NCBI RefSeq assembly: GCF_000372725.1
Contig: NW_005201391.1
Location: 1 to 49,568, forward strand
Reading direction: 5' to 3'
DNA: 49,568 nucleotides
DNA from: Emiliania huxleyi CCMP1516
Taxonomy: Eukaryota
In this document: positions 24,268 to 42,734 of the stretch, in pieces
Layout: every line of letters starts with the position of its first letter
Numbering within the stretch: position 1 is the stretch's first letter
Notes under the pieces: model-generated
Told to the model about the DNA's origin: nothing
What the model saw: the letters and a program-made list of their open reading frames with translations, nothing else
The model's database searches: none
Made by a program: the position numbers and the translations under genes

Positions 24268-25953
24268 TCACCACCACTCCTCCTGGAAGTCGGGCGCGGC
24301 GCGGTCAAAGGGCTCGAGCCCGTGAATGCCGTGCTCCTCGCGGTGCGACGTGGATCGCGAGAAGTCGTGCCGCCGGCGGTAGTTGCCCCAGCCCGAGTAG
24401 CCGTACTTGTCGTACTGTGGCGAGATGCGGCCGGAGGTCCGCGGCGCTCCCGCCTCCTCAGCCTCCTGCTGCCGCTGCGCCCACTCGTAGTACGGCTCGA
24501 AGTCCTTCTTCGGCGGCGGGAAGTGGGTCGCACTGCAGCCGGGCGGCAGCCGGTTGTTGAGCGCGGCCGCCTCGCGCTTGCTCAGGTCGGTGCCCGTGAG
24601 CTCGAGTGTGCGCAGCCCGGGAGCGAGCGCGACGAGCGTCGGCAGCGCGGCGGCGTGCGGATGGGCGAGCGCGTAGCCGTCGTCGCGGCCGCCCTCGAGC
24701 ACTAGCTCGCGCAGCGGGCAGCCGCGCAGCGCGTGGAGGCACGCCGCCGGAAGGTCGCAAGACCCGGAGACAACGAGGGTGCGGAGGGTGCGCCGCGCGC
24801 CCAGCCGCTCAAAGAAGGCGGGTGGCGGCCTGCTGGAGCCGCGGGCGTAGTCGACGTGCGTGAGGCGCAGCGTGCGCAGGTCGGGCGGCGGCGTGTCGAG
24901 GCGGGCGAGCTCGTCACCTCCCCAGTCGATGTCCAACTCGCGCAACGAGATACAGCCGCTGATGGCCGCCCAGCCCTCCTCGGACAGGTGAGCGGCGGCG
25001 TGGACGAGCCGCAGCCTTCGCAGCGTGGGCGGGAGCGGCGGCAGCGTGGTGGGCGGGAGCGGCGGCCCGTCGGACAAGACGCAGCTGCGCATCGGCGAGG
25101 TCAGCGTGAGGTCCGTCACGTCCTGCGGCACGACGGCGGCTGCCGCGCCCGCCTGCGGAGGCCACGGCAGCTTCAGCGCGACGCGAGGAGCCGCCGACGC
25201 CGCCTCGGCACGCTCCTCGTCCGCCTCCTCGCGCAGTTTAGCTTGGAGCTCGTCGGCCGCCTTGCGCCGCTTCCTGTGCTCGGCCCAGTGCTCGCGCACC
25301 GCGCTGCCGCTGCGCCCCGTGCCCAGCCTCGAGGCCACATCCTCCCACACCACACCCTCGCCGAGCGCGTGCACGAGCTGCTGCAGCTGCGCCTCCTCGG
25401 CCGCCTTCCACGCCCCGCAGAACTTGCGCTCGGTCGCCTTCTGGCAGGGCACCGCCGCCTTGCGCTTCTTCCCGCCCGCCGCAGGCACGTGGCCTACTCC
25501 TCCGTCTTCTCCGTCCTCACGCTTGATCGCGGATGGGGCGGGTCGCGGCGCGCCGCCGAGCGCTTGCACCTGCGCCTCCGCCGAGATGACAACACTGACC
25601 CAGTAGCACGTTCCCTGCCGCGTCTGCTTGTGCGCTCGCTTCTCGGCCTCGGTCGCGGCCCGACGCGTGGCCTTACACCCAGGGTGGGTTCGCACCCACC
25701 GGCTGAAGTCCGTCCAGGACGCTGACGTAAGATGCACAGACGGTAACAGCAGGTCTGACACCAGAGCTGCCTCGCCTTGGATCACTGTGTCCGTGAGCGC
25801 GGCAGTGAACGAGGCGCGCGCGGCGTCCTCGCGGCGCTCCGCCGCACCCGACTTCCTGGCGTAGCGACCGAAGCGGCCGCTCCCGCCATCGTTGTCGTCG
25901 AAGCCGAGGCCGAGGCCGCCGAGGCCGCCGAGGCCGCCGAGGCCGAACATCAT
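24268..25953 (-). CDS. Myb/SANT-domain protein with C-terminal LRR-like region
   Basis: AWKAAEEAQLQQLV...WEDVASRLGTGRSGSAVREHW (Myb Trp spacing), followed by LRRLRL, LRELDI, LRTLRL, LRELVL, LRTLEL repeats. Confidence 0.75.
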   Translation of the reverse strand: MMFGLGGLGGLGGLGLGFDDNDGGSGRFGRYARKSGAAERREDAARASFTAALTDTVIQGEAALVSDLLLPSVHLTSASWTDFSRWVRTHPGCKATRRAATEAEKRAHKQTRQGTCYWVSVVISAEAQVQALGGAPRPAPSAIKREDGEDGGVGHVPAAGGKKRKAAVPCQKATERKFCGAWKAAEEAQLQQLVHALGEGVVWEDVASRLGTGRSGSAVREHWAEHRKRRKAADELQAKLREEADEERAEAASAAPRVALKLPWPPQAGAAAAVVPQDVTDLTLTSPMRSCVLSDGPPLPPTTLPPLPPTLRRLRLVHAAAHLSEEGWAAISGCISLRELDIDWGGDELARLDTPPPDLRTLRLTHVDYARGSSRPPPAFFERLGARRTLRTLVVSGSCDLPAACLHALRGCPLRELVLEGGRDDGYALAHPHAAALPTLVALAPGLRTLELTGTDLSKREAAALNNRLPPGCSATHFPPPKKDFEPYYEWAQRQQEAEEAGAPRTSGRISPQYDKYGYSGWGNYRRRHDFSRSTSHREEHGIHGLEPFDRAAPDFQEEWW

Positions 25954-26049
25954 CGCAGCTTTCTTTTTCGCAAATCCGTTCCAGACTGATTCCGTTCCAG
26001 GATTCCGTTCTTCAACAAATTGGAAGAATTCTGATTTCCCCTTCCTTTT

Positions 26050-26460
26050 TCCGACCTTCATCGCGGGCTGGCGACGGCCGACGACATCGTCGTCGGCCTC
26101 TCCGACGGCGTGTCGGGTGCTTTTGGCGGGAAGGCGATGGGCAAGGTCATGGGCTACTCGAAAGACGACCGACGCGCGAGGGCATCCCACATCCTGCTGT
26201 CCTTCGATGCCTACCCGGAAGGGAGCTCGCCCGACTCCGAGGCGATGGCGAACGGGCTAAAGGCAAAGATCGAAGGCGGCGACTTCACGTTTGAGTTTGC
26301 GGCGGAGAAGTTCTCCGCAGTCGGCCGAGCGCGGTGGCGACCTGGGCGAGTTCAAGCGCGGCGCCATGGTGCCGGCGTTCGACGAGGCCGTCTTCAAGCA
26401 AGGTCGTGGAGGACGAGCCGCTCGGCACGATCTTAGGCCCGGTCAAGACGCAGTTTCGGC
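26050..26460 (+). pseudogene. Parvulin-type (PpiC) peptidyl-prolyl isomerase fragment, frameshifted
   Basis: RASHILL..F..AAEKFS, then [21 protein letters not shown] and GPVKTQFG in shifted frames. Confidence 0.75.
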
Positions 26461-27023
26461 CTCCCCTTGAAAAAAAATAAAATATTCTTACCTTCAAGCC
26501 CCCCTCCGAGACTAGGGACAAACCCACACCAGTATAGGCCGGAGGGATTGCGCCTCGCCCCCCCTTGCCCTGTCTGCACAGGATAGCGTGCCCCGAAGAC
26601 GGCGACACATAGCGGGGGACTCTGCCCAAGGAGGGGGTGGGAACCCAAGGTTGGGGTTCTGGGTGGTGGGCCCAATGAGGGGGGGAGGGCGGGGTCCTGT
26701 GGGGGTGAAATGTTGCGCGGCGAATTCGAGCCTACCCCCTCGCCGCGCCGATCCTCACGCGGAGGGTAAAACCCTGTGGGACAAAACCCCTCCGCGGTCG
26801 GCTGTCTTCAGAGTGGACCCCCCCCTCCCCAGCCTCCCCTGTTCGTTTTTCGCACCCCCCCCCCCGCTCCCCATCGGTGACTCGCGAAGGACACGGACAC
26901 TCGGGGTGGGGGGGGAGGGGTCCCCCAGAGAGGGGGCTTTGGGGCCTTGTTGAGTCAATCTCCGGCTAAGCATATATGCGGGGTGCGGCGAGGCAGTGAT
27001 ATGAGAGCTCTTGGGCTGTCTGC

Positions 27024-27444
27024 CTAGTATAGCCTTGCGCCGCGAGATACGAGATCGCCTGGTAAGGTGTGGACGGGGCGGCGGTCACGAAAAGCGGCAG
27101 CGGTTTTGGAGTGGATGCTTCTCAGAAACTACCTCGTTGGCGCGCTTGCCCGACTTGCAGTGGACGACCATCGGCGTGTCGCAGGCGGTGGGCAGCATGG
27201 CTGTCGGCAAAGAGGCCGACTGCCTGTCCCACGGAGCCGACAGCGACCCCTCAACAAGCTCATACACACCCGCCACAGCCTCTGCCCTGTCTGCCCCGCG
27301 GACATCGACAATGACGGCTCCGTCAGCGAGGGCCGAGGAAAGCGCAGCGCGAGTTGACAAGGCGGGCGCCCCACTGCTTGAGCTTGCGAATCGAGCCGCA
27401 GGGGAGATCACGCGGCGCGCGGCGAGCCGGCACGAGGGGAGCAT
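27024..27444 (-). CDS. Single-domain rhodanese / sulfurtransferase with mitochondrial-type presequence; last exon not found
   Basis: VIVDVRG and PMVVHCKSGKRA active loop, spliced to AISYLAAQGYT. N-terminus MLPSCRLAARRVISPAARFASS. Confidence 0.85.
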
Positions 27445-27975
27445 ATGTGTGTATGCGGTCGGTCCAACTCAAGCAATCAATCGCTCGGCGGCTTGTTTGC
27501 GGGCGCTTGCTTTACGAAAAACGGCGCCGCTAAGAGCAGCTATCCCGGCCCGACGTGCCGCGCGCGCTTTGACAGCGGCGGCATCATGCACCCGGGGCTG
27601 CGTTCGCAGACGCAGCCCTTCTTGAATACACACGTTCCTCAAGATATCACGAGAAGGGCGGTCGGTGGCGAGCGAGCCCAGACGGAGCGACTCCACATGC
27701 GCATGATGTGCATGTGATCTGGGCAGGGATACGTACGTGCAGATAGATAGGGTTGCATGCATGGCTGCAAGGGCGAGGCAGGCTTCTATCACCTCGGCTG
27801 CTGGGCTTGCAAGAGCTGGCGAGGGCCGTGGGCTGGTGCGCGTGCAATTGTGACCGAGCCGAGGAAAAGCGGGCGCAAAGTGCTTGATTACCGCCGGAAT
27901 TGTCGTCATCACGACAGTTGGACCCACCACGAGTAAATCGGTGCGTCCCTTTGCTCGCCCCTCGACCGCAGCCCT

Positions 27976-29717
27976 ATGCGCATGCTCGCAAACCTCCGCA
28001 ACGTCTCACGCGCGTCGTCCGTGTCGGCACACTTTCGGCGGCACGCCTCCACCGGCACTCGGAAGCACAAGATCGTCGTCGTCGGCGGTGGGGCAGGAGG
28101 TCTCTCCAGCGCCGCAATGCTCCTCCGGAAGGGCGGTCTGTCGGCAGACGTTGCTGTGGTGGAGCCGTCCAGCAGCCATTTTTACCAGCCTTTGTGGACG
28201 CTTGTCGGAGGTCCGCAACACGTTACCTGCCCAAGGGCCTGGCTAGCACCGTCCAGACGGTCTCTAGCAGTCGCCGCTGCACCCACGCATTCTGCTCCCC
28301 TTGGCCTGCCGAACGCTTCAGAGTCCAACACGGCCTTGCCTCACGCCTGCCCACTCGGCGTGGCCTGACGCCTGACGCCTGCCTGACGCCTGCCCGGCCC
28401 GGTCCCAGGCGGCATCAAAGAGGCGGAGGAGTCTCGCCGGGACATGGCCAGCGTCATGCCGAAGGATGCGACATGGATCCAATCGGCCGCAAAGACTATC
28501 GGTAGACTTGCACCGCCGCAATCATCTTTGTCGCCCCTGCACTGCTGAGATGTTGCGCATTCACAGCCCCCCCCCCCCCCCCCTGTCCGCAGATCCCGAC
28601 GAGCAGGCCGTCATCCTNNNNNNNNNNNNNNNNNNNNNNNNNNNNNNNNNNNNNNNNNNNNNNNNNNNNNNNNNNNNNNNNNNNNNNNNNNNNNNNNNNN
28701 NNNNNNNNNNNNNNNNNGCACCGGCGCTATCTCTGCGGTGCCAAAGTATGCGGCAGCGCTCGAGGGCATCCGAAAGGAGCGCGGCGTCGAGACGTCCTTC
28801 AAGCACGAGCTAATCAAGGTGGACGGGCCGAACAAGGTTACCTGGCGCGCCCTCAAGACAGACGCGTGAGCCTTCTCTGAATACCCTCACCTGTGAACAT
28901 AGGTGGCCACCTTCCAGACGGACGAGGGCCCGGTCGAGCGCAGCTACGACCTGCTGCACGTAGTTCCCCTCATGGGTGCGCACGACTGGATCAAGGGGTC
29001 GAAGATTGCCGACCCCGACACTGGGTGTGCGTCCCCAGACGCGTCCGCGCGCCACCCACATTCCAATCCCCGCCCGGCTTGGCCCTGCAGGTACGTGACC
29101 GTCGACAAGGACACGCTGCAGCACACCGCCTACCCAAACGTCTTTGCGATCGGCGACTGCTCCAACACGCCCAACTCCAAGACGGCCGCCGCCGTGACCG
29201 CACAGGCGTGCCGCGATCTAGGATACAAATTCAATGATCCACGCTGACGGGGTCATTCCAATCGCTAGGCGCCCGTTGTGGTGCACAATATGCGCCGTGT
29301 GATGGCGGGGAAGGCGCCCAATGCGACCTACGACGGGTATGCATCGTGCCCCATCGTGACGGGTCGGGGCAAGCTGATCCTTGCCGAGTTCAAGTACGGG
29401 AACGAGCTCGCCGAGTCGCAGAGCTGGTGAAATATAGCCGAGGTGGTGGAGGAGAGGGAGAGTGGGAGTCGGCGTCGTGTCAGTCGTGAGCTTCTGCGGC
29501 CGTAGGTACCTGGACCAGGGCAAGGAACAGCTCCCCTTCTTCTACTTGAAGAAGTACGTGTTTCCGTTCGCCTACTGGCGCGGCTCGCACACCCCATGCA
29601 GAGACGTTCCCTCTCATGCCTTGAGCCCCACTCTATGCCTACAGGAACTTTATGCTGCCCGGCCGCTGGTATGGCACGCGCACCATTTTCGAGCCCTCCT
29701 TCCCCGACCCCGCCTGA
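27976..29717 (+). CDS. SQOR: Sulfide:quinone oxidoreductase, mitochondrial (multi-exon, spans a gap)
   Basis: [72 protein letters not shown]. Confidence 0.95.
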
Positions 29718-30108
29718 GAGGCTGTTACAAATGGTGAGCTGGGGGACACAGCGTACTGTTGAGTGCATGTACGGAGGTGGGTGCTGTGAGAGGAGAGAAA
29801 GCAATTCGCGCGGTTTTGCAAGCAGCGCCCGGCGATGTAATTGGCGCGTAAACTTCTTTTTGTCGCTTCCGACGGGTTTTTCACGTGCGCAAGTTTGGGC
29901 TGCTCGGGTGCGCTCTTCGCTGCCCAAGTCGCCGGTTACTGATGCCCATCTCCGCCATCCCCAGCTCTCACACCGGTGCCGCGTTTTGGGTCCGTCTGCC
30001 ATCGCCGTGCGACGCGGCCCCTGTAGTTTTGCACCGAACAGCTCAGCCGGCGCGGCCCCAGCCCGCTGCCATCGTGGCTCGGGCACGGCAGTCGATCCGT
30101 CACACCAC

Positions 30109-31241
30109 ATGCCCATTCCTGCGCAGGCGATGGGACTGAAGAAGCCAAGGCGGGGCGGAGCGCCGGGCACGCCGCTGCCGCTCAAGGTGCTGGCGGGCGG
30201 TGCAGCCACGCTGCTCTGCACCGCCGCGCTAGCCTTCCTCGCGATGCCATCGTCGGTGCAGCCGCCGCCGCCACAGGTGCGGGCGGCGCAGTCCTCCCTG
30301 CACGCGCTGAGCGCGCGCCGCATCGACGGCTCGCCGCTCGACCTCGCCACGCTTTCGGGCAAGGCGCGAGCAACACAGACACGCGCACATCAGCACACAT
30401 CAATACACGCACACACGTGGAGAGCCCCCCTCCCCTCACCTGCCCCCCGGGCAGGCGGTCCTGATGGTCAACGTTGCCTCGAGCTGAGGGTCGACAGACA
30501 GCGCGTATCCTGCGAAGGGATTCTTCTTCTTCTGACTGGCGGTTCGCTATATAGGTCGACGGGGAGCGCGTACGCGCAGCTCAAGCGGTGGCACGCCGAG
30601 TTTGGTGCCGCCCTCGAAGTCCTCCTCTTCCCCTCGGACGAGTGGCGGCAGGAGCGAGCAGGTCCCGACCATCATTCATCACGACTGGATGACAGTTCTT
30701 CGTTGTTAATCAGGAGCTGCCGACGGAGCAGATCCCGGCAGCGGTGGCGTCGCACGGGCTGCCGGCTGAGGCGCCGGCCTGGTGGGCAAGGCCTCTGTGT
30801 GTGTGTGTGTGTGTGTGATTGATGATGACTGATTCATTAGGCGCCAGGCTGCCACCTGATGGATAAGGTGACTCGATTCGACACCCTCCCAAACTCTCGT
30901 GAAGAGACTTCCCAGACCCCCCCCCCCCCCCTCCCCCGCCGCCCCTCCTCACGCCCGCCCCACTCCAACAGGTGGAGGTCAACGGCCCGCGCGCGGACCC
31001 GCTCTTCGAGCTCGCCAAGCGCTCCTTCCCAGGCGACGTGACCTGGAACTTCGACGGCGCTTTCGTCTTTGGGGCCGACGGCGCGCCGCTCAGCCGCACG
31101 GCATCGTCCAGCAGAGTAGCACGGACACGCGACTTGATCTCTCCTCTTCTAGGTGCGCCGCTCGGCCGCTTCTCGCTGCGCAGCGCGGACCTCTCCTACG
31201 CGTCGTCGCTCGTGCGCAAGGCTGTGGCCACCGCACGCTAA
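30109..31241 (+). CDS. GPX: Selenocysteine-containing glutathione peroxidase with N-terminal membrane anchor (7 exons)
   Basis: Spliced GK|AVLMVNVASS-TGA(30485-30487)-G, then LLFPSDEWRQE, K|VEVNG..ADPLF, VTWNF. Confidence 0.9.
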
Positions 31242-31358
31242 GCCGCCACCGCCCCGTCCCACGCCGCCCGTTTGCCCGCCGGCGTGGCCACGCGCCACCC
31301 TTCGCCAACCCCCAGCACTGTCTCCCCTTTGGAGGGGCGGCCCCCGCAGCACGCGCTG

Positions 31359-31451
31359 GCGCCGTCTCCGCCGGCCAATGACGCGAGCCGCGCAAAGCCC
31401 ACACCGAGGGCGTCGCGGCCGTCGCCGAGGACCGTGCCGGCATGACGGCGC
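31359..31451 (+). promoter_or_regulatory. SECIS element (form 2) in the GPX 3' UTR
   Basis: ATGA at 31378, stem GCGAGCCGCG, unpaired AAA, mini-stem GCCC/GGGC, return strand CGCGGC..TCGC, CGAG, plus an outer helix GCGCCGTC..GCCGGC / GCCGGC..GACGGCGC. Confidence 0.9.
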
Positions 31452-31597: not shown

Positions 31598-34500
31598 TCA
31601 CTTGGCCTCGTACCACGTGGAGGCTGTGTTTGCGTCAACGACCAGATCGACGAGCAGCGAAGGCAAGTTCTCGTCGAAGGGCCGCTCCATGCACGCCACC
31701 ACCTCGGCGCGCGCCTCGTCCGCGAGCTCCGCCGGCCCCTCGAACATCACCTCGTCGTGCACCTGCAGCAGGTTGCGGAAGCCCATCTCGCGCAGCTTCT
31801 CGGACCGCTGCAGCTTGATCATTGCGAGCGTCATGATGTCCGCCGCGCCGCCCTGGATGGGCGTGTTGATCGCGGCTCGCTCCATGTGCGCGCGCACGGC
31901 GCCGTTCCGCCCCTGGATGCCGGGCAGCGTGCGGTAGCGGCCGAGGAGGGTGCGCGTGGCGCCCGTCGCTCGCGCCGACGCGATGGTGTCCTTCTGCCAC
32001 TGCAGCACCTCGGGCCGGTCCGCGTACCAGGCGCGCAGCATCTCCTTCGCCTCGTCGATCGAGACGCCCCAGTCCTTGGACAAGCCGTGCGCCGTCTTGC
32101 CGTACGCGATCGAGAAGTTGAGCGTCTTCGCGCGCCTCCGCTCCGACCCAAAGAGGTCCTTGAGCAGCGGCGCGGGAGGCTCGCCCTGCGAGTAGTCCCA
32201 GTCGAGCAGGCAGGTGCCGTCCTCCACGGCGCGGCGAACGTGGTCGAACATCCCCATCGCGGTGCGCGAGTGGAAGTCGCCCCCGAGCTTGAAGGCCTCG
32301 ACCATCGAGGTGCACGCCGTCATGTGTGCGAGCAGCCGCAGCTCGAGCTGGCCGTAGTCTGCGACGACGAGGGCCTTGCCGGGGGCGGCGACGAAGGCGT
32401 CTCGGATGAGGTACTTGTCTTTCTCGAGCGCAGGCTGGTTCTGCAGGTTGGGGGTGCGGCTCGACAGGCGGCCGGTCTCGGTGTTGAGGTTGAGCGAGCA
32501 GTGGATGCGCGACGTGCCGTCGGCCAAGTCTTGCAGCGGAAGGATGAAGTTGGAGAGCATCGTGTCGATGGCGCCCATCTGGCAGAGCGCCTCGAGCGCA
32601 CGGCACGCCTCCTCGCCGACCTCGCCCCCGCCGAACGCACCATACGCCGACCCGAACACGGGAGGGTCCTCGGACGGCCTGCCGGCGAGATGGCCCGAGA
32701 TGGCCCGAGATGGCCCGAGATGGCCCGAGATGGCCCGAGATGGCCCGAGATGATCCGAGATGACCCGAGATGATCCGAGATGGCCCGAGATGTGCGGTGC
32801 GCGTGCGGCTTCCCGGACCTGCCCGCCAGCTCGCGCAGTGCGGCCGCGTCTGTCGCCGGCCAACCGCTCTTGGTGGTCTTAGCGTGCTCGAGCTGGAGGG
32901 AGGAGAGCTCGAACTCGACCTCCTTCCGGCCGCTGTCCACGATGACGCCCTCCAAGGACACGCCTCCAGCCTCCACCACCGCCGCCGTCGCTGCCGCCGC
33001 CGCCTCGCGCGCCGCCGCAGCCGTCGGCGCCGCCGCAGCCGTCGGCGCCGCCGCCGCCGCAACCGGCGCGGCGGGCGCGGCCGCGGGAGAAGTGGTCTCC
33101 GCTGCCGGCGTCGACGGGCGCGGTCCCACCGCCTCGCTGGTCGACACCGCCTCGCTGAGCCTCTGCCGCAAGTCCGCCTTGAGCCGGAGCCCCTTGCGAG
33201 AGACGCCGCGCGCGTCGAGCTCCTCCTTGAGCTCGGACACCTTAAGCTTGCCCAGCCGCTCCCCAGTCAGCGCCGCACCGCCGCCGCCGCCCGCCGCACG
33301 CACCGCCTCCTCCTCCGCCGCCCGCCCCACCCCCGCCGCCGCCGCAAGCCCCGCCGTTGCCCCCGCCGCCGCCTCCCTCGCCGCCGCCTCCCTCGCCGCC
33401 GCGCCCGCCTCCGCACCGTGCGCGTGGCCGGTCGCGCGCAGCCTCGCCACGTGGAGCTCCTATTCACAACCCTCCCCCGATGCTGGCTCTCGTGCTTTCT
33501 TGTCTTCCGCCCTGGCCGCGCGGAGCTCCTCAAAGGCAGCTCGCTCCAGCTTGAACGTGCGCCGCAGCGGCAGCACCTCGGCCGAATTTCGCCTTGTCGC
33601 GCCGCCGAAGAGCAGGGTCTGCACCTGCGTGGCGAATAGTATGGGGAGATGTGGGGAGATGCGGGGAGATGTGGGAGATGTGGGGAGATGTGGGGAGATA
33701 TGAGCCGCCGGAGAGCAGGGTCGCACCTGCGTGCCCGAGCCGACGTTCATGTACCACGCTGCCTCAGTGTACCTCGCCGCCCACTTGCGAAACGTCAGCT
33801 CCGCCGCGTCGCGGTCGGCCTGGGCGCGCGTCTGCGCCAGCGGCAGCTTGGACCGCACGTCCACCATCACTCCGGCGCGCTCCATGTCGGTGAGCAGCTC
33901 GCCTGGGAGGGGGAGAGGCGCAGAGACGGCTCCGAGCCTCGGCTCCGAGGCGGCGGTGTGGGAAGCTCGGTGGGAAACTCGCCGAACGGCCGCCAATACT
34001 CGGTGTAAAAGTCGAAGAGCGAGCGAGTGCGCAGCCACTCCATGCGCGAGAGGCGCGCCTACGGGCAAGGGGCCCAGAGAAGGCTGCCCGCAAGGCTGCC
34101 CGCAAGGCCCGCTCCGAGCGGCGAGAGTGCGCGCGCCTCGAGCTCGCGGTAGAGCAGCCACGTGCCTAGGTCTCGTGCCCTCAGCTGTGAGACCTCTCTC
34201 CGCATCAAGACCTGCCGCTCGAGCGGCGGCGCGCCCTTGGCGTCGTACACGGCGTACTGCACCCAGTCCGGCCGCGTCAGCGGGGACGCCTAGGACATAT
34301 GGGGAGATCTGGGGAGATCTGGGGAGATCTGGGGAGATCTGGGGGCCAGTCCGGCCGCGTCAGCGGCGACGCCTGCAGCGAGTCGAGCGGCGGCAGCTCG
34401 ATGATCTTGCCCGGCGTGCCGTCCTTGCGCAGCTTTGGCTCGCCGAAGATCTCCTTCATCGACACCTTTGCCACGCCGACCAGCTCTTCGGTCAGCGGCA

Positions 34501-35383
34501 GGGACTCAACTCATACATGAATGGTTCACTGCCTCACCTTTGCCCGGCCGACCAGCTCTTCGGTCAGCGCGGCGAGCGAGTAGCCCGCGAGGCGGGACGC
34601 GTCCCACAGCCGCGCCATGTGCATCGTGTCGCCTCCGAAGCCGACGACGTCGACGCCGTGGTTGTACAGCACGTGCCTGTCAAAGCCATAGTTGTGCCAG
34701 ACCTTGAGCGCAGACTCACGCTCAAGCCAGGGCTTGAAGGCCTCGAGCACGCCCGGCTCGGTCGTGTCGACGAAGAGGGCCTTCCCGGGCCCCGAGCCGA
34801 CGTCCAGGTCGGGCCCCGAGTAGACGGTGATGCAGAGCACCCTCCCCTGCCCGAGCGGCGAGCGGCCGAGGTCGAGGTCCGCCACCTCGGTGTCGCAGGC
34901 GTGGATCAGCTCGTCGCGAGCACACAGGAGGGCGGCGACGCGGCGCGCCTCGGCGGCGTCGCTCACCTCGTGCACGCCGACCTCCTCCTGGTCGTGGAAC
35001 CCCGGCGTGAAGTCGCCCACCGGACGAGCACGAGCCGCCTCAGCCGCCGGCGAGGCGGCGGCGGCGGCAGTCTCGCGTGCGGCTGCGGCGAGGCGAGCAC
35101 CAGCGCCGTCAGTCACGCTGGAGGCGTCACTGGAGGCGCGTGCCTCGCGCGATAGCCCGCTCCACCCGACGTCGTTCGCACCCCTCGCCGTGGCCGCGGC
35201 GCTGGAGAGCCACCTGCCGTCCTCGGCTATCGCCCACGTGCGGCGCGCGCTCGCCGCCAGCCGCGAAGTGCGCGGCCGCGCGGCTCGCCCGACGAGAGCT
35301 AGGCCGCGCCAAGCGAGTCCAGGAGTCATCAGCAAGCACAAGAGGAGGGAGGTCGCTCGCAACACGAGGCCCCGGCTCGCCAT
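31598..35383 (-). CDS. POP: Family A organellar DNA polymerase (POP type) with 3'-5' exonuclease domain
   Basis: HACDTEV, KVWHNYGFDRHV, DTMHMARLWD, NTETGRLSSRTPNLQNQPALEKD, ADYGQLELR, RRRAKTLNFSIAYG, NTPIQGGAAD, LQVHDE. Confidence 0.95.
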
Positions 35384-36290
35384 GATGGCATTTTCCACGA
35401 AAGAAAGAAAATATACGTTGCACCAAGTGCTACGAGACCAGAACAAGGCGCTCTACCGGGGCCTGCTGTGCTACTGTACGGCTTAGGCGAAATGTTCCTC
35501 GCTGCGGCGCAAGACGAGGGCACCTTCGGCGAGTTCCCGTTCGAGGTGGCAGCGGCGGCGACCGCCCGGCTGCTCAAGCCTCAAGGTCAAGCACCACACG
35601 CGCTCCGGCGCGTGGGTCGAGATCACGCCGGGCAGCCCTAGCCAGGCCTCACGCGCTGGCCGCGACCGCGACCGCGGCTCTCGCTTGAGCCCGAACTGCC
35701 CCGTCAGACATGTCGGAATTGTCGGAGAAAGCGACTAGCACACCTCTGTCAAGAGTCCCCAGAAACCCCCCTTCTCTGTGTTCGTGCGTCGCCCATCTCT
35801 ATTAAAATGAACTCGGGGGCACACGGGCGTGACGCGGCACGAACGGGGCACCCATCTCTCCTGGAGATGCCTGCTCTATTTATTTAGGGCAGGAGGATTT
35901 GGACGGACGGAAAAACACCCCCCTCTTATGCCTGACCCTGGCCATGGCCTCTCTGGGGGTGAGCTGGGCCGGCCGCCTCCGGGTCCGCCACTCGCACGGT
36001 GGGCTCGCGTCCGGGAGAGCATCCGAGACCCGCGGTTGTCCGCTCGCTGGGCGCGACCTACATGGAAATCCACTGCACACAGATCTGTGCTTTTGGCGCC
36101 TATTGCTCGCTCTCTGTGCAATCGCAACGCCAGAGGCCGTGCTTGGAGAGTGTGTCGCAGTGCTGCTACGTCAGTGGATTGAGCCGCGACGCAGGCTCCA
36201 TCGGTGAGCTGCGGCGGCGCACCGGCCGCTCCATGCATGCTCTCCGGCGAGCCGTCGCAAACGCGTTTCCGTCCGCCCGTTTCATCGAGT

Positions 36291-38025: not shown

Positions 38026-40257
38026 CTAGATGAACTTCCCCTGCATAATTAGCATCGTGCTCACCACGATGACATAGCTGGGCACGACTATTCGACGGCC
38101 GACCCAGTCGAAGTCGATGTCCGCAGGCGGCTCCTCCGCTGCTTCCGCCAGACTCTCCGGCGACGGGCGTCGCTTCCGGAGAGAGAGCGCGGGCCCAACC
38201 CCGGCACTTGCACGCGCAGCCGCGAGCAGGTCGCTGGGCCCGCCGGTCTCGCGTCGCCTGGGAACGCCGTCGCGCTGCCCGCTCGGCTCCTCCTCGTCCG
38301 CCCCCTCGCGCTCCCTAAAATAGGGCTGGCCCTGCCCATTGCGCTCCCCCTGGCTGGTACTGCGCTCGATCCTCCGCATGCGGACGCGCCCGCGCCTCCA
38401 GCTTCTCCCTGCTCTCTGGATCCGCCGAGAAATGCTGCCGTTGAAGTCGAGGAAGCTGAAGAAGCACACTAGCGCCTGGTAGCTGACGTTGATTGTCATA
38501 AAGAGCTCGCTCCAGGTCACGTCGGACGTGTCTGGCATATCGACCGACACGCGCAGGGCGAGCGTGCAGAGCAGCGCCGTGACACCGAGGGCGATCGAAT
38601 CCCCCGGCGCCGGGATCCAAAAGGCGATGAACCCCACTAGATTGAGTAGAATTGCCGGCACGATGAGGCGGAGCCACATCTTGAACGAGTGCCTCGTGAA
38701 GTGTAGCTTGTACAAAACGACATCGCGCCGCTCGTCGGCGTCGAGCGCTGTCGAGAACGATGCGTAGAAATTCGGATCCTCGTGGACCACATCGAAGCCG
38801 AGGCCGCCGTCCATGGAGACGGCAAGGTTGCTCACGGCGAGAGAGGCGGCGCAATCGTACTCGTCGAACGGGAAATGGCTGATGCCCTTCTCCGTGTGGC
38901 AGAGAAAAGTCGAGCGGAGGTAGTGCTCGACGGAAACCCGTCCTGACGGCATGACGACCGCTGGCACGCTCGAGAGCGTGTTGCGCGAATACTCGTTGAG
39001 GAAGAGGAACGGAGGCATCCAGATCTGGTCAAGCTGCAGCTCGATCGGGTCGGCGTGCTTGCGCATCGCCCACTCGAGCCGCGGGTCGACCCAAGAGAGG
39101 TGCAACCAGTAAACGAGCTCAAAGGTGCCGTCAAAGGGCGTGAAGTGCGTCACGCTCACGTTGCGGAGGCCGGTCTCGACGGACGTCCTTCCGACCGGCG
39201 GCACGCGAGGGTCATAGCTGCTCATCTGCTCTTCGAGCAGCAAACCGACGGGGTCGCTCGAGACGGTCGACGCGCTCGACCAGGACACGTCTACCGTCGC
39301 GCCTTCAACGTCAAACTCCGCCGCCACTGCGGCCGTCGAGCTGAGCCCTATATCCTGCACGGTTTGCACGAGCTGCTGCAGCGTGCGCCACATCCCCAGG
39401 TTGGGGTAGAAGACCATCTGGTCGACCGTCACGAGGATCTTGCGCGCCGATACGAGGTCTGGGAAGCTATTGTCCCAGCCGGTGGTGCCGAGCATGCTGT
39501 ACTCCTCCTCTTGCAGCGTTTGCCTCGCCGCAGACAGCAGCGCGCGAGCGCTGTCGTCGTTGGGCGCGAGGATCACCTCCGGCAGCGGCTTGCTGGCAAA
39601 GTAAGGGGCCACTGCCTGGGTGGCGCCCTCCACGCTCGCGGAGATCGACCAGAGATCGCTGTATCCGACAGGACACGCCTCGGCAAAGCCAGCGAGGGTC
39701 GAGTCCACACGAAAGTCGAGGTCGGACCGGCCGGTGAGGTAGAACCTGGCCACCCTCAGACGGGTGGCTCCTCCCTTGAGCCGGCAGAGCTCGCGGCCCA
39801 AGGCGGCGCCTGCGTCGGGAGAAGCGGCGCCCTCGGGAGAGGCGTGCACGTACAGCACGTCGGCGGCGGCCAGGCTGTGCCTCGTGAGGTTGAGTCCCGA
39901 GCCGAAGGCTTCAATCGCCGCAACGCCGGTGCGCAGCATGTTGACGAGCGCATCCTCTGCTGCGCCGCCCGCGGGCACCGCGCCCGAGATGACGAGCGTC
40001 TGCCTCGGGCTGTCTGCGGCGGCGGCCGTGGCGTCACGCAGCGCCTTTTCGTGGAAAGCGTCGGAGTACTCTGCAAACTGGCCGGCATCGTAGGGCGAGC
40101 AGAGATGCTGGGAGCCCGGGAAGGACGCGACGCCCGCGGCGGCGAACTTGCTGTACCAACTGTCTGGGTCACCGCAGCGGCCGCCGATGAGGAGAATGCG
40201 AGTGAAATTGAGGACGGTTGCGCGCTCTGAGCTCGCACGACGGCGCGGTGCGTCCAT
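38026..40257 (-). CDS. Pentameric ligand-gated ion channel subunit with N-terminal type I periplasmic-binding-protein domain; intronless
   Basis: PBP-I: VILAPNDDSA, TTGWD, VTVDQ. Channel LBD: YDPRVPP, W.DPRLEW, IWMP, FPFD. Four TM helices, with M1 LIVPAILL and M2 GDSIALGVTALL. Confidence 0.92.
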   Translation of the reverse strand: MDAPRRRASSERATVLNFTRILLIGGRCGDPDSWYSKFAAAGVASFPGSQHLCSPYDAGQFAEYSDAFHEKALRDATAAAADSPRQTLVISGAVPAGGAAEDALVNMLRTGVAAIEAFGSGLNLTRHSLAAADVLYVHASPEGAASPDAGAALGRELCRLKGGATRLRVARFYLTGRSDLDFRVDSTLAGFAEACPVGYSDLWSISASVEGATQAVAPYFASKPLPEVILAPNDDSARALLSAARQTLQEEEYSMLGTTGWDNSFPDLVSARKILVTVDQMVFYPNLGMWRTLQQLVQTVQDIGLSSTAAVAAEFDVEGATVDVSWSSASTVSSDPVGLLLEEQMSSYDPRVPPVGRTSVETGLRNVSVTHFTPFDGTFELVYWLHLSWVDPRLEWAMRKHADPIELQLDQIWMPPFLFLNEYSRNTLSSVPAVVMPSGRVSVEHYLRSTFLCHTEKGISHFPFDEYDCAASLAVSNLAVSMDGGLGFDVVHEDPNFYASFSTALDADERRDVVLYKLHFTRHSFKMWLRLIVPAILLNLVGFIAFWIPAPGDSIALGVTALLCTLALRVSVDMPDTSDVTWSELFMTINVSYQALVCFFSFLDFNGSISRRIQRAGRSWRRGRVRMRRIERSTSQGERNGQGQPYFREREGADEEEPSGQRDGVPRRRETGGPSDLLAAARASAGVGPALSLRKRRPSPESLAEAAEEPPADIDFDWVGRRIVVPSYVIVVSTMLIMQGKFI

Positions 40258-40389
40258 TGAGGAGAATGACGAGTTCGAGGGGCGAGGGGGGCGGCCACGC
40301 GAGCGTCCACCCCGGTTCCGTCGTACGAACCGTCCCTTGGATGCGCAAAGGTAATATTTTCGCATATGCGGCGGGCTCTCTCTCGAGGT

Positions 40390-40415
40390 GGCTCGCCGTT
40401 TTCTTTATTTATTTA
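40390..40415 (+). mobile_element. 26-bp insertion with (TTTA)n tail and 9-bp TSD
   Basis: TCTCGAGGT at 40381-40389 and 40416-40424. Confidence 0.6.
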
Positions 40416-40946: not shown

Positions 40947-42006
40947 TTACCACTGGCGCCCGCCGCCGCCGCCGCCGTAGAAGCCGCCGCCGCCACCCTG
41001 GGCGCCGTAGCCGCCGCCGTAGCCGCCGGGCGCGCCGCCGCCGTACCCGCCGCCGCCGCCGTAGCCGCCGCCGCCGCCGTACCCGCCGCCTNNNNNNNNN
41101 NNNNNNNNNNNNNNNNNNNNNNNNNNNNNNNNNNNNNNNNNNNNNNNNNNNNNNNNNNNNNNNNNNNNNNNNNNNNNNNNNNNNNNNNNNNCCCTTGATC
41201 ATTGGGGAAACTTTTATGAAAGGCGAAAGTTTTACTGGACCAGTCGCGGCAGATTCGATTGCAGTGTTACCAGTCGGGAAGACGAGCGGACACGGACCGG
41301 CGGAAAAGCGTGTAAGGCGGCTCACCGGGGCGCACCAGGGACAGCCCGGGTCAGCGGCGGCGCGAAGAGGAAGGAGGTGGCGAGGGAGGGGGCGGCGATG
41401 AGGGCGGCGGCGGCGAGGGAAGGGGGCGGTGGTGGGGGCGGAAAAGGAGATGGCGGCGGTGGCGGTGAGGGTGGCGGCGGGGACGGCGGCGGCGGAGGCG
41501 ATGTGGCGGCGGGGACAGCGAACCTTCTTGTCATCCCACTCCTTCACGAAATGGACCGCGCTGCCTTGGGCGAGCGCGTTGCCGTCGCTGATCTGCGAGA
41601 AGTGGCAGAAGAGGTCCTCCCCGCCGTCGTCGGGCGCGATGAAGCCGAAGCCCTTCTCACCGTTCCACCGCACCACCTTGCCCTGGATCATGCCCTCTGG
41701 CGGCGGGCCCGAAACGCCGCCGCCGCCGCCGCCGCCGCCGAGTGCATCCTCCTCGCCGCCGGTGACTTGCTCGGCGCGCTCCTTGCCCTTGCGCTCGTCG
41801 TACACCTTGACAAACTGCACCTGGGCGCCCTCCCGCAGCATGTTGCCGTCGAGGATGGACGAGTAGTGGCAGAAGAGGTCGCCGCCGCCGTCGTCGGGCT
41901 TGATGAAGCCGAAGCCCTTGTAGTTCCAGCGGAGGGCCGTGCCGGTTCCCCGCGGGCCGGCGTCGCCCGCGCCGGCGTCGCCCGTCATCGCCGCGTCGCC
42001 CATCAT
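40947..42006 (-). CDS. Cold-shock-domain protein (two CSDs, Gly/Tyr-rich tail); spans a gap
   Basis: KGFGFIKPDDGGGDLFCHYS and KGFGFIAPDDGGEDLFCHFS. Tail GGYGGG..GGRQW* ends at 40947. Confidence 0.92.
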
Positions 42007-42734
42007 TGCGCGGAGCTGCTGTCTCCACGATGAGCGGAGGTCCCTCTGAGCACAGAGAGCCCGACAATTTTTTTTTTACCAACTCGTGCAGAAATACCGC
42101 ACCAACGTCGCGGGTTCGCCGCTGCTTGCGCCGCTGCTGCAGGAGGTGCCCCGAGACATGCGCCGTCTCGGCGGACGACTCGGACGCGCCTAGGGTGCCC
42201 ACAGGACCCAAAAAAAGAAAGGAAAAAAGAAATTGGCCATTCCCGATCGCAGCACTTCGTGTTGGATAGTCGAGATATTGAGAGTGTGACTAGGAGGGTG
42301 GGACGCTGGGGATTCTCAAAGGTATCACCGTCCACCTCGGCTTCGCCACACACGCGCCCAACGTCGGCGGCGACATCCAGGAGGAGCTCCGCGCGATCCA
42401 GCGGCGCGACGAGCGGGTGCGTCCACCCCCGCTCTCACCTCCACCCCTCGCACCCGCACCGACCCTCCTTGCCGCGCGCGCTCAGGAGGGCCGGCCCGCC
42501 TTTTCTTTCAAGGAGAATTTTAACATCGCGCGCGACGGCCGGAAGGAGGCGGGGAAGCTCGAGCAGCTCTACGTCAAGCACTGCATGCCTGCCATCTCCC
42601 TCTGGCCGAGCGTCGCGTGGCCCACGTACTCGCACGCCTCGCGCTACATCCACTGGTGGACATGCAAGGAGCTCCGCACCCACCGCCGAATTGTCGGTGG
42701 TCCGTGAATACCTCCCTCACGGAGGAGGACTGCT

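What the first reader, a model, noticed from the sequence alone, without database searches (positions are those of the whole stretch)
27024..31451. Eukaryotic sulfur/redox gene cluster: rhodanese and SQR head-to-head, then Sec-GPX
Seen: the rhodanese and SQR start codons are about 530 bp apart and divergent, both with mitochondrial-type presequences. GPX starts about 390 bp after SQR ends. Established: SQR makes persulfide and rhodanese transfers it, and the two cluster in bacterial operons. Inference: a shared bidirectional promoter co-regulates sulfide oxidation, relevant in a likely DMSP-producing alga. No persulfide dioxygenase is seen in the window.
Basis: partly seen in the sequence, partly recalled or inferred. 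Interest (0 to 1): 0.7.

Follow-up and report, generated by a model that had tools for sequence, protein, structure and literature searches.

The report
Algal two-gene sulfide oxidation pair
In the alga Emiliania huxleyi, the gene for a sulfide-oxidising enzyme sits head-to-head with a gene that is cut short in this assembly but likely encodes the pathway's other two enzymes fused together, so two neighbouring genes would cover the whole predicted mitochondrial sulfide-detoxification route, an arrangement documented in bacteria.

Summary
The three genes are real and spliced, and the spacings hold (531 bp; 391 or 412 bp). The window matches named E. huxleyi CCMP1516 gene models. A marine metagenome contig (L001), 99% identical to the window, parts from it at 26963, inside intron 2. 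It continues into an exon that completes the rhodanese and begins an ETHE1-type persulfide dioxygenase (PDO). In the window a repeat-like segment replaces that exon. Eight of 31 non-self homologs are rhodanese-then-PDO fusions, five of them also carrying YeeE/YedE sulfur-transport domains; 0 of 80 bacterial PDO loci had this order. So SQR likely faces a rhodanese-PDO fusion, which would put the whole sulfide pathway in two divergent genes. Limits: only about 16 PDO residues are seen for E. huxleyi, on one contig; synteny in other species, start sites and co-expression were not testable. The GPX is a credible selenoprotein (in-frame UGA in spliced RNA, SECIS) but has a membrane anchor and is probably a bystander. 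The scan's earlier notes show no look-alike DNA.

The parts
27133..27444 (-). Exon 1 of the rhodanese(-PDO) gene: presequence-like N-terminus and rhodanese domain with the catalytic Cys (codon 27159-27157)
   Evidence: PF00581 at E 8.6e-4, below the curated cut-off; Cys invariant in 13 aligned rows; RNA contigs of X11 cover 27132-27426
27059..27132 (-). Intron 1 (GT-AG)
   Evidence: joint in an RNA contig of X11
27024..27058 (-). Exon 2 (35 nt)
   Evidence: RNA joint; in frame with exon 3 of L001
26963..27023 (-). 5' part of intron 2 (GC donor); the window copy breaks off at 26963
   Evidence: L001 matches 732 of 738 letters up to 26963, then differs and goes on to an acceptor and exon 3
26456..26962 (.). 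Repeat-like segment standing where the rest of the gene should be
   Evidence: several diverged contigs pile up on it in runs X10, X14 and X15; no clear terminal repeats; single copy within the window
27445..27975 (.). 531-bp divergent intergenic region, candidate shared promoter (untested)
   Evidence: L001 covers 27445-27700 at 99%
27976..29717 (+). Type II sulfide:quinone oxidoreductase. Exons 27976-28210, 28409-28501, 28593-(N gap)-28836, 28903-29024, 29091-29205, 29269-29426, 29506-29577, 29645-29717
   Evidence: RNA joints; named models P0002 and P0003; human SQOR E 2.5e-97
28618..28717 (.). Assembly gap (100 N) inside SQR, hiding about residues 119-221 including the first catalytic Cys
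30130..31241 (+). Sec-type glutathione peroxidase with an N-terminal hydrophobic anchor. Exons 30130-30363, 30455-30489, 30555-30651, 30714-30770, 30841-30867, 30972-31080, 31153-31241; UGA at 30485-30487
   Evidence: 6 joints in each of 3 RNA runs; 215-codon model; 7 of 7 PDB hits to one exon are GPX, weak E 0.2-1.5
31370..31441 (+). Type II SECIS element in the GPX 3' UTR
   Evidence: unconstrained fold gives SECIS geometry; strongest of 3 sites in the window, 2 of 2000 UTR shuffles pass; transcribed

Best explanation
An SQR gene and a rhodanese gene lie head-to-head 531 bp apart, the rhodanese gene is broken off in this copy, and its intact form likely encodes a rhodanese-persulfide dioxygenase fusion, so the pair would supply the whole predicted mitochondrial sulfide oxidation pathway. 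Shown: gene structures, splicing, the break at 26963, the continuation in L001 into the first strand of a PDO, and complete rhodanese-PDO fusions among the closest homologs. Inferred from known family chemistry: SQR oxidises H2S, passes electrons to ubiquinone and releases persulfide; the rhodanese domain moves sulfane sulfur via its Cys; the iron-dependent PDO oxidises glutathione persulfide to sulfite, which the rhodanese can turn into thiosulfate. Inferred, untested: mitochondrial import of both proteins and joint control from the 531-bp spacer. The Sec-GPX next door is a real selenoprotein gene but likely an unrelated neighbour.
For: L001 continues past the break with GC-AG intron 2 and an in-frame exon. 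That exon scores 14.1 bits on a profile of 9 fusion relatives, 0 of 1000 shuffles as high; three frames of the window's own downstream sequence score -3.6 or less. Its last 24 residues score 17.0 bits on a PDO-N-terminus-only profile, 0 of 2000 shuffles as high; 5 tails of homologs with no PDO score -1.0 or less. RNA contig 5 of X11 (196 nt) places 120+36 nt on the window and leaves about 40 nt unplaced, as a splice into exon 3 predicts (the letters were not shown, so this is inference). 8 of 31 non-self homologs have PDO after the rhodanese, 4 complete. The PDO of P0244 matches Arabidopsis and human ETHE1 at E 3e-74 and 2e-73. SQR keeps both catalytic Cys in the full allele. Chance that one of two flanking genes is a rhodanese is about 0.0016, using 47 of 57,176 from PMC10290126.
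Against: Only about 16 residues of the PDO are seen for E. huxleyi, on one 1,029-bp contig that ends in intron 3; a profile of bacterial PDOs does not detect them. The metal-binding motifs are seen only in relatives. L001 does not reach SQR, so an intact fusion and SQR were never seen on one molecule. The gene copy in this window cannot make a PDO. The pair was picked after the fact from a genome-wide scan, so some pathway neighbours arise by chance. No other species could be checked for the linkage. The fusion relatives carry no organism names.
Confidence: 0.7

Rival explanations
1. The fusion gene is real, but its position next to SQR is a lineage-specific accident in a compact genome; the two genes have separate promoters and are not co-regulated.
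For: No expression, start-site or cross-species data support co-regulation. The neighbourhood is rearranged at 26963. Selenoprotein gene clusters in algae are mostly species-specific (PMC7539508).
Against: A given SQR has a low chance of flanking a PDO gene, about 1e-4 if the genome has 2 such genes among roughly 30,000 (both numbers assumed or recalled). Orientation is divergent with a short spacer, and both N-termini look like presequences.
Confidence: 0.3
2. The gene is a stand-alone or decayed rhodanese whose tail is a leftover of an older fusion, with the working PDO encoded elsewhere.
For: The public model is a 52-aa rhodanese (P0259). Several homologs show no PDO. The full PDO was not seen in E. 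huxleyi.
Against: Exon 3 is open, in frame, flanked by normal splice sites and matches the fusion profile up to the next donor. The public model reads into intron 2 and owes its end to the break.
Confidence: 0.12
3. All three genes, including the Sec-GPX, form one co-regulated sulfur and redox cluster.
For: Tight packing: SQR 3' UTR reaches at least 29812 and a GPX transcript starts near 29870. A given gene flanks one of 10 GPX genes with a chance under 0.001, assuming about 30,000 genes. All three use glutathione chemistry.
Against: GPX has a hydrophobic anchor at residues 20-38 rather than a presequence, is not a known step of the pathway, and is one of many redox genes in this genome. An unrelated DNA polymerase gene is packed just as closely on its other side.
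Confidence: 0.12
4. The pair is a bacterial sqr-pdo-rhodanese operon acquired by horizontal transfer and later given introns.
For: Bacterial sqr and pdo are adjacent in 441 of 4929 genomes (PMC5702731). In one search, 10 of 80 PDO loci have SQR and 28 of 80 have YeeE-type genes nearby.
Against: The SQR groups with Pavlovales, Tetraselmis and a fungal sequence, not with named bacteria (quick tree, SH-aLRT 94 for that group, 60 rows). The PDO of P0244 scores higher on eukaryotic ETHE1 than on bacterial PDO structures. Domain order is reversed relative to all 49 bacterial fusions seen.
Confidence: 0.06

Closest known systems
Mammalian mitochondrial sulfide oxidation pathway (SQOR, ETHE1, rhodanese TST)
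   Same: Same three activities predicted; SQR matches human SQOR at E 2.5e-97; the PDO of relatives matches human ETHE1 at E 2e-73; the pathway is described in PMC5702731.
   Different: In mammals these are three separate proteins from unlinked genes (linkage recalled). Here rhodanese and PDO are likely one chain and the gene faces SQR.
Bacterial sqr-pdo clusters and PDO-rhodanese fusions (BpPRF, PDB 5ve3; S. aureus CstB)
   Same: Adjacent sqr and pdo, with rhodanese fused to one of them (PMC5702731; PMC12934615).
   Different: Bacterial fusions are PDO first, rhodanese last (49 of 80 loci; 0 of 80 reversed). Here the order is reversed, the genes have spliceosomal introns and presequence-like N-termini, and they are divergent, not co-transcribed.
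YeeE/YedE sulfur-transport genes beside bacterial pdo
   Same: 28 of 80 bacterial PDO loci carry them within the fetched stretch (the query contained these domains, so the count is biased upward).
   Different: In 5 homologs of this rhodanese they are fused into one chain with rhodanese and PDO; 0 of 80 bacterial loci show that fusion. The E. huxleyi gene lacks this part.
Algal Sec-containing glutathione peroxidases
   Same: In-frame UGA at the catalytic position and a 3' UTR SECIS; E. huxleyi has ten GPX genes (PMC7539508).
   Different: Nothing unusual beyond a membrane anchor and a GA-AG intron; whether this copy is among the ten published was not checked.

Membership tests
Type II SQR (SQOR-like) | FAD-binding Rossmann start and overall similarity to human SQOR | tested here: met
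Type II SQR (SQOR-like) | Two catalytic cysteines | tested here: met
   C189 and C362 of the full allele P0003 align to Cys in human SQOR (their catalytic role is recalled). In the window the first lies in the N gap.
Type II SQR (SQOR-like) | Mitochondrial import and sulfide:quinone activity | not testable with these tools
   N-terminal composition only
Single-domain rhodanese (GlpE/TSTD1 type) | Rhodanese domain with catalytic Cys loop | tested here: met
   PF00581 E 8.6e-4, under the cut-off; Atlas top hits all rhodanese, scores under 0.9; Cys invariant
Single-domain rhodanese (GlpE/TSTD1 type) | Stand-alone single domain | tested here: not met
   the gene continues in frame towards a PDO in L001
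PDO-rhodanese fusion (PRF; BpPRF, CstB) | PDO and rhodanese in one chain | tested here: inconclusive
   complete in 4 relatives; only about 16 PDO residues seen for E. huxleyi
PDO-rhodanese fusion (PRF; BpPRF, CstB) | N-terminal PDO, C-terminal rhodanese | tested here: not met
   order is reversed
ETHE1-type (type I) persulfide dioxygenase | Metallo-beta-lactamase fold with the His/His/Asp iron site | not testable with these tools
   motifs align in P0244 and in three further relatives; the E. huxleyi exons were not obtainable
Sec-glutathione peroxidase | In-frame UGA at the catalytic position in spliced mRNA | tested here: met
Sec-glutathione peroxidase | 3' UTR SECIS element | tested here: met
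   own geometry test, 2 of 2000 shuffles. Against: no Rfam SECIS match, folding z -1.13, bare pattern 9 matches against 7.9 expected
Sec-glutathione peroxidase | GPX domain match | tested here: inconclusive
   single exons give no Pfam hit; 7 of 7 weak PDB hits are GPX; Gln, Trp and Asn of the tetrad present by inspection (tetrad recalled)
Co-regulated gene cluster with bidirectional promoter | Divergent genes under 1 kb apart | tested here: met
   531 bp between start codons
Co-regulated gene cluster with bidirectional promoter | Shared start-site region and correlated expression | not testable with these tools
   only contigs were available, which show neither starts nor levels
Co-regulated gene cluster with bidirectional promoter | Linkage conserved in other species | not testable with these tools
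   no eukaryotic genomes held; supplements searched gave nothing

The most novel reading that the evidence does not exclude
Haptophyte algae have independently rebuilt the bacterial sulfide-oxidation operon: a conserved, sulfide-responsive head-to-head SQR and rhodanese-PDO pair. It belongs to an undescribed eukaryotic fusion family whose longest members join a YeeE/YedE sulfur transporter, a rhodanese and a dioxygenase in one chain, channelling sulfur from membrane import to sulfite.
Probability: 0.3. Interest if true: 0.82.

Novelty: new variant of a known kind. Interest (0 to 1): 0.63.

Why it matters
E. huxleyi is a bloom-forming alga central to the marine sulfur cycle (general knowledge), and I found no paper on its sulfide oxidation in the library searched. 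A two-gene pathway gives a direct handle for testing whether phytoplankton mitochondria oxidise sulfide. The reversed rhodanese-PDO order and the transporter-rhodanese-PDO chains are domain architectures I did not find described (open-access library only). The case also shows a reference gene model (52 aa) hiding a pathway enzyme behind a broken copy.

Tried and rejected
No whole genome was held, so the second allele's neighbours were not seen. No DNA runs were laid, so it is open whether the break at 26963 is a real rearrangement or a mis-join. Contig presence by run (absence is not evidence): X11 holds rhodanese and SQR pieces but no GPX coding piece; X15 holds GPX only; X10 holds SQR and GPX; X14 holds GPX and a scrap of SQR. 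The near-length protein search with the rhodanese found only its own ORF; PDB gave 2 chance hits. Rfam found no SECIS. Viral-contig scans with P0245 and P0003 gave 0 loci; alignment A2 was too diverse to scan. 21 of 22 loci from the metagenome scan were distant rhodanese matches (50-80% over short stretches) and were not analysed; only L001 was. Supplements of PMC4028052, PMC8379373 and PMC11347835 had no relevant rows. PMC4301891 lists none of the ids 224837-224839 among N-limitation-regulated transcripts, and its FASTA file, cut at 4 MB, lacked the exon-3 stretch. The careful SQR tree did not finish; the quick tree is reported. Searches of earlier scan notes gave two bacterial notes that did not change the reading and otherwise nothing. 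Rejected: the stop in the window's read-through of intron 2 as the true gene end; a frameshift at GPX 30652 (RNA shows a GA-AG intron, a type verified in this species in PMC4028052).
Full report
Verdict. The evidence points to an SQR gene facing a rhodanese-persulfide dioxygenase (PDO) fusion gene whose copy in this window is broken. Co-regulation and conservation are untested, and the GPX is probably a bystander. Interest 0.63; new variant of a known kind.

Identity of the window. An SQR exon matches two named Emiliania huxleyi CCMP1516 models at 100%: P0002 (EOD37880.1, 305 aa, skipping exactly the part around the window's N gap) and P0003 (EOD19948.1, 431 aa, on another scaffold, probably the other allele). 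The 52-aa model P0259 (EOD37879.1) is the adjacent accession and corresponds to the rhodanese. No whole genome was held.

Observation. The start codons at 27444 (minus) and 27976 (plus) are 531 bp apart; SQR stops at 29717; candidate GPX starts lie 391 and 412 bp further on. RNA contigs from 4 runs of 4 studies support 14 introns: 1 in the rhodanese, 7 in SQR and 6 in GPX. Several donors are GC and one is GA, both reported for this species (PMC4028052, passages read). The first 30 residues of rhodanese and SQR hold 4 and 7 basic residues and no acidic one; the GPX instead has a hydrophobic stretch at residues 20-38. No targeting predictor was available.

SQR. The full allele matches human SQOR at E 2.5e-97 with both catalytic cysteines aligned. 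In a quick maximum-likelihood tree of 60 rows (27 labelled by hand, 32 sampled from the hits, and one domain of P0125) it groups with Pavlovales, Tetraselmis, unnamed sequences and a fungus (SH-aLRT 94), apart from named bacteria (the careful search did not finish). This argues against recent transfer from bacteria but does not fix a root.

The rhodanese is part of a fusion family. A full HMMER search with exon 1 gave 33 hits, 2 of them the gene's own models. Of the other 31, 8 carry a PDO domain after the rhodanese (4 complete, 4 breaking off early) when tested with a profile built only from bacterial PDOs; 7 carry YeeE/YedE-type domains before it; 5 carry all three. The hits with the highest identity (49-51%) are such fusions; the two top-scoring non-self hits are multi-rhodanese repeats. 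The PDO of P0244 matches Arabidopsis and human ETHE1 (253.6 and 250.6 bits) better than bacterial BpPRF (216). These proteins have no organism names. That they are eukaryotic is inferred: several drift into unrelated sequence as at introns, their nearest named relative is the intron-containing E. huxleyi gene, and the Atlas's nearest structure for the transporter part of P0245 is an all-eukaryote cluster at TM 0.47.

The window copy is broken. A metagenome scan with P0259 returned 22 loci, one of them close. L001 matches the window at 732 of 738 letters from 27700 to 26963, then differs. It completes a 111-nt GC-AG intron and an open, in-frame third exon, followed by another GC donor. That exon scores 14.1 bits on a profile of 9 fusion relatives; 0 of 1000 shuffles reach it, and the window's own downstream frames score -3.6 or less. 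Its last 24 residues score 17.0 bits on a profile of PDO N-termini alone; 0 of 2000 shuffles reach it, and 5 control tails score -1.0 or less. A profile of whole bacterial PDOs does not detect so short a piece. An RNA contig of run X11 leaves about 40 nt unplaced after exon 2, as a splice to this exon would (inferred from lengths). In the window, 26456-26962 is a repeat-like segment and 26035-26455 a frameshifted parvulin fragment; the missing exons are nowhere in the window. Whether this is a real rearrangement or a mis-join is open.

How it most likely works. From established chemistry of SQR, PDO and rhodanese (PMC5702731, passages read): SQR oxidises sulfide and feeds electrons to the respiratory chain, the rhodanese speeds transfer of sulfane sulfur to glutathione, and PDO oxidises the persulfide to sulfite, with thiosulfate as a further product. 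Fusing rhodanese to PDO would couple the last two steps, as in bacterial fusions (PMC12934615, passages read). All of this is inferred for this locus; no activity or localisation is shown. A shared promoter in the 531-bp spacer is plausible and untested.

Chance. With 47 rhodanese-domain proteins among 57,176 (supplement row of PMC10290126), the chance that one of two flanking genes is a rhodanese is 0.0016; for a PDO it is about 1e-4 under assumed numbers. These are after-the-fact figures: a genome-wide scan over many pathways would give a few such neighbours by chance. Conservation in other species is the missing test.

Comparison with bacteria. Adjacent sqr and pdo were reported in 441 of 4929 bacterial genomes. 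The algal arrangement works like these clusters but fails the domain-order test for the known fusion family.

GPX. The spliced model has 215 codons with one internal UGA, kept in contigs of 3 runs. A type II SECIS lies about 130 nt after the stop: it is the strongest of 3 sites passing my geometry test in the window, and 2 of 2000 shuffles of the UTR pass. Against this, Rfam has no match, the folding energy is ordinary (z -1.13) and the bare pattern occurs at chance level. Family assignment rests on motifs and 7 of 7 weak PDB hits. With ten GPX and 96 selenoprotein genes in this species (PMC7539508, passages read), a membrane anchor and no known role in the pathway, it is most likely a neighbour by packing.

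Novelty. Searches of the open-access library found no paper with SQR, rhodanese and Emiliania together, one irrelevant listing for huxleyi with persulfide dioxygenase, and no listing describing a eukaryotic rhodanese-PDO or YeeE fusion or such a gene pair (listings only). Subscription papers, the BpPRF paper (not held) and bioRxiv supplements could not be seen and may bear on this.

Noticed in passing
proteins P0245, P0246, P0254 (complete or nearly so); P0251, P0255 (partial): Single-chain YeeE/YedE transporter + rhodanese + ETHE1-type PDO fusions from unnamed, probably algal contigs; not seen in 80 bacterial loci or in the papers searched. Worth a study of its own.
   Followed up: partly
window 26035-26455 (+): Parvulin-type PPIase fragment with a 5-nt deletion and a 4-nt insertion relative to an expressed transcript in run X15; looks like a pseudogene piece captured beside the repeat.
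   Followed up: partly
window 30652-30713 (+): GA-AG intron in GPX, supported in 3 RNA runs; GA donors are rare but reported in this species.
   Followed up: yes
window 31601-35452 (-): Family A DNA polymerase with a 3'-5' exonuclease domain, converging on GPX; one X15 contig runs from GPX into it, suggesting overlapping 3' ends.
   Followed up: no
window 24271-25953 (-): Intronless ORF with a Myb-like domain followed by what look like leucine-rich repeats (by eye).
   Followed up: no
window 38029-40404 (-): Pentameric ligand-gated ion channel-like ORF (PF02931) with a long unassigned N-terminal region of about 380 aa.
   Followed up: no
window 41525-42075 (-): Protein with two cold-shock domains, running into an assembly gap at 41092-41191.
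   Followed up: no
window 28720-28836 (+): One residue differs from the complete allele P0003 (Ser for Phe); RNA contigs also show one differing letter in this exon, so it may be a sequencing error next to the gap.
   Followed up: partly
SQR search hits: Among haptophytes only Emiliania and Pavlovales SQRs were named; no Prymnesium, Chrysochromulina or Phaeocystis name appeared in the 120 listed. This may reflect missing names or patchy presence.
   Followed up: no
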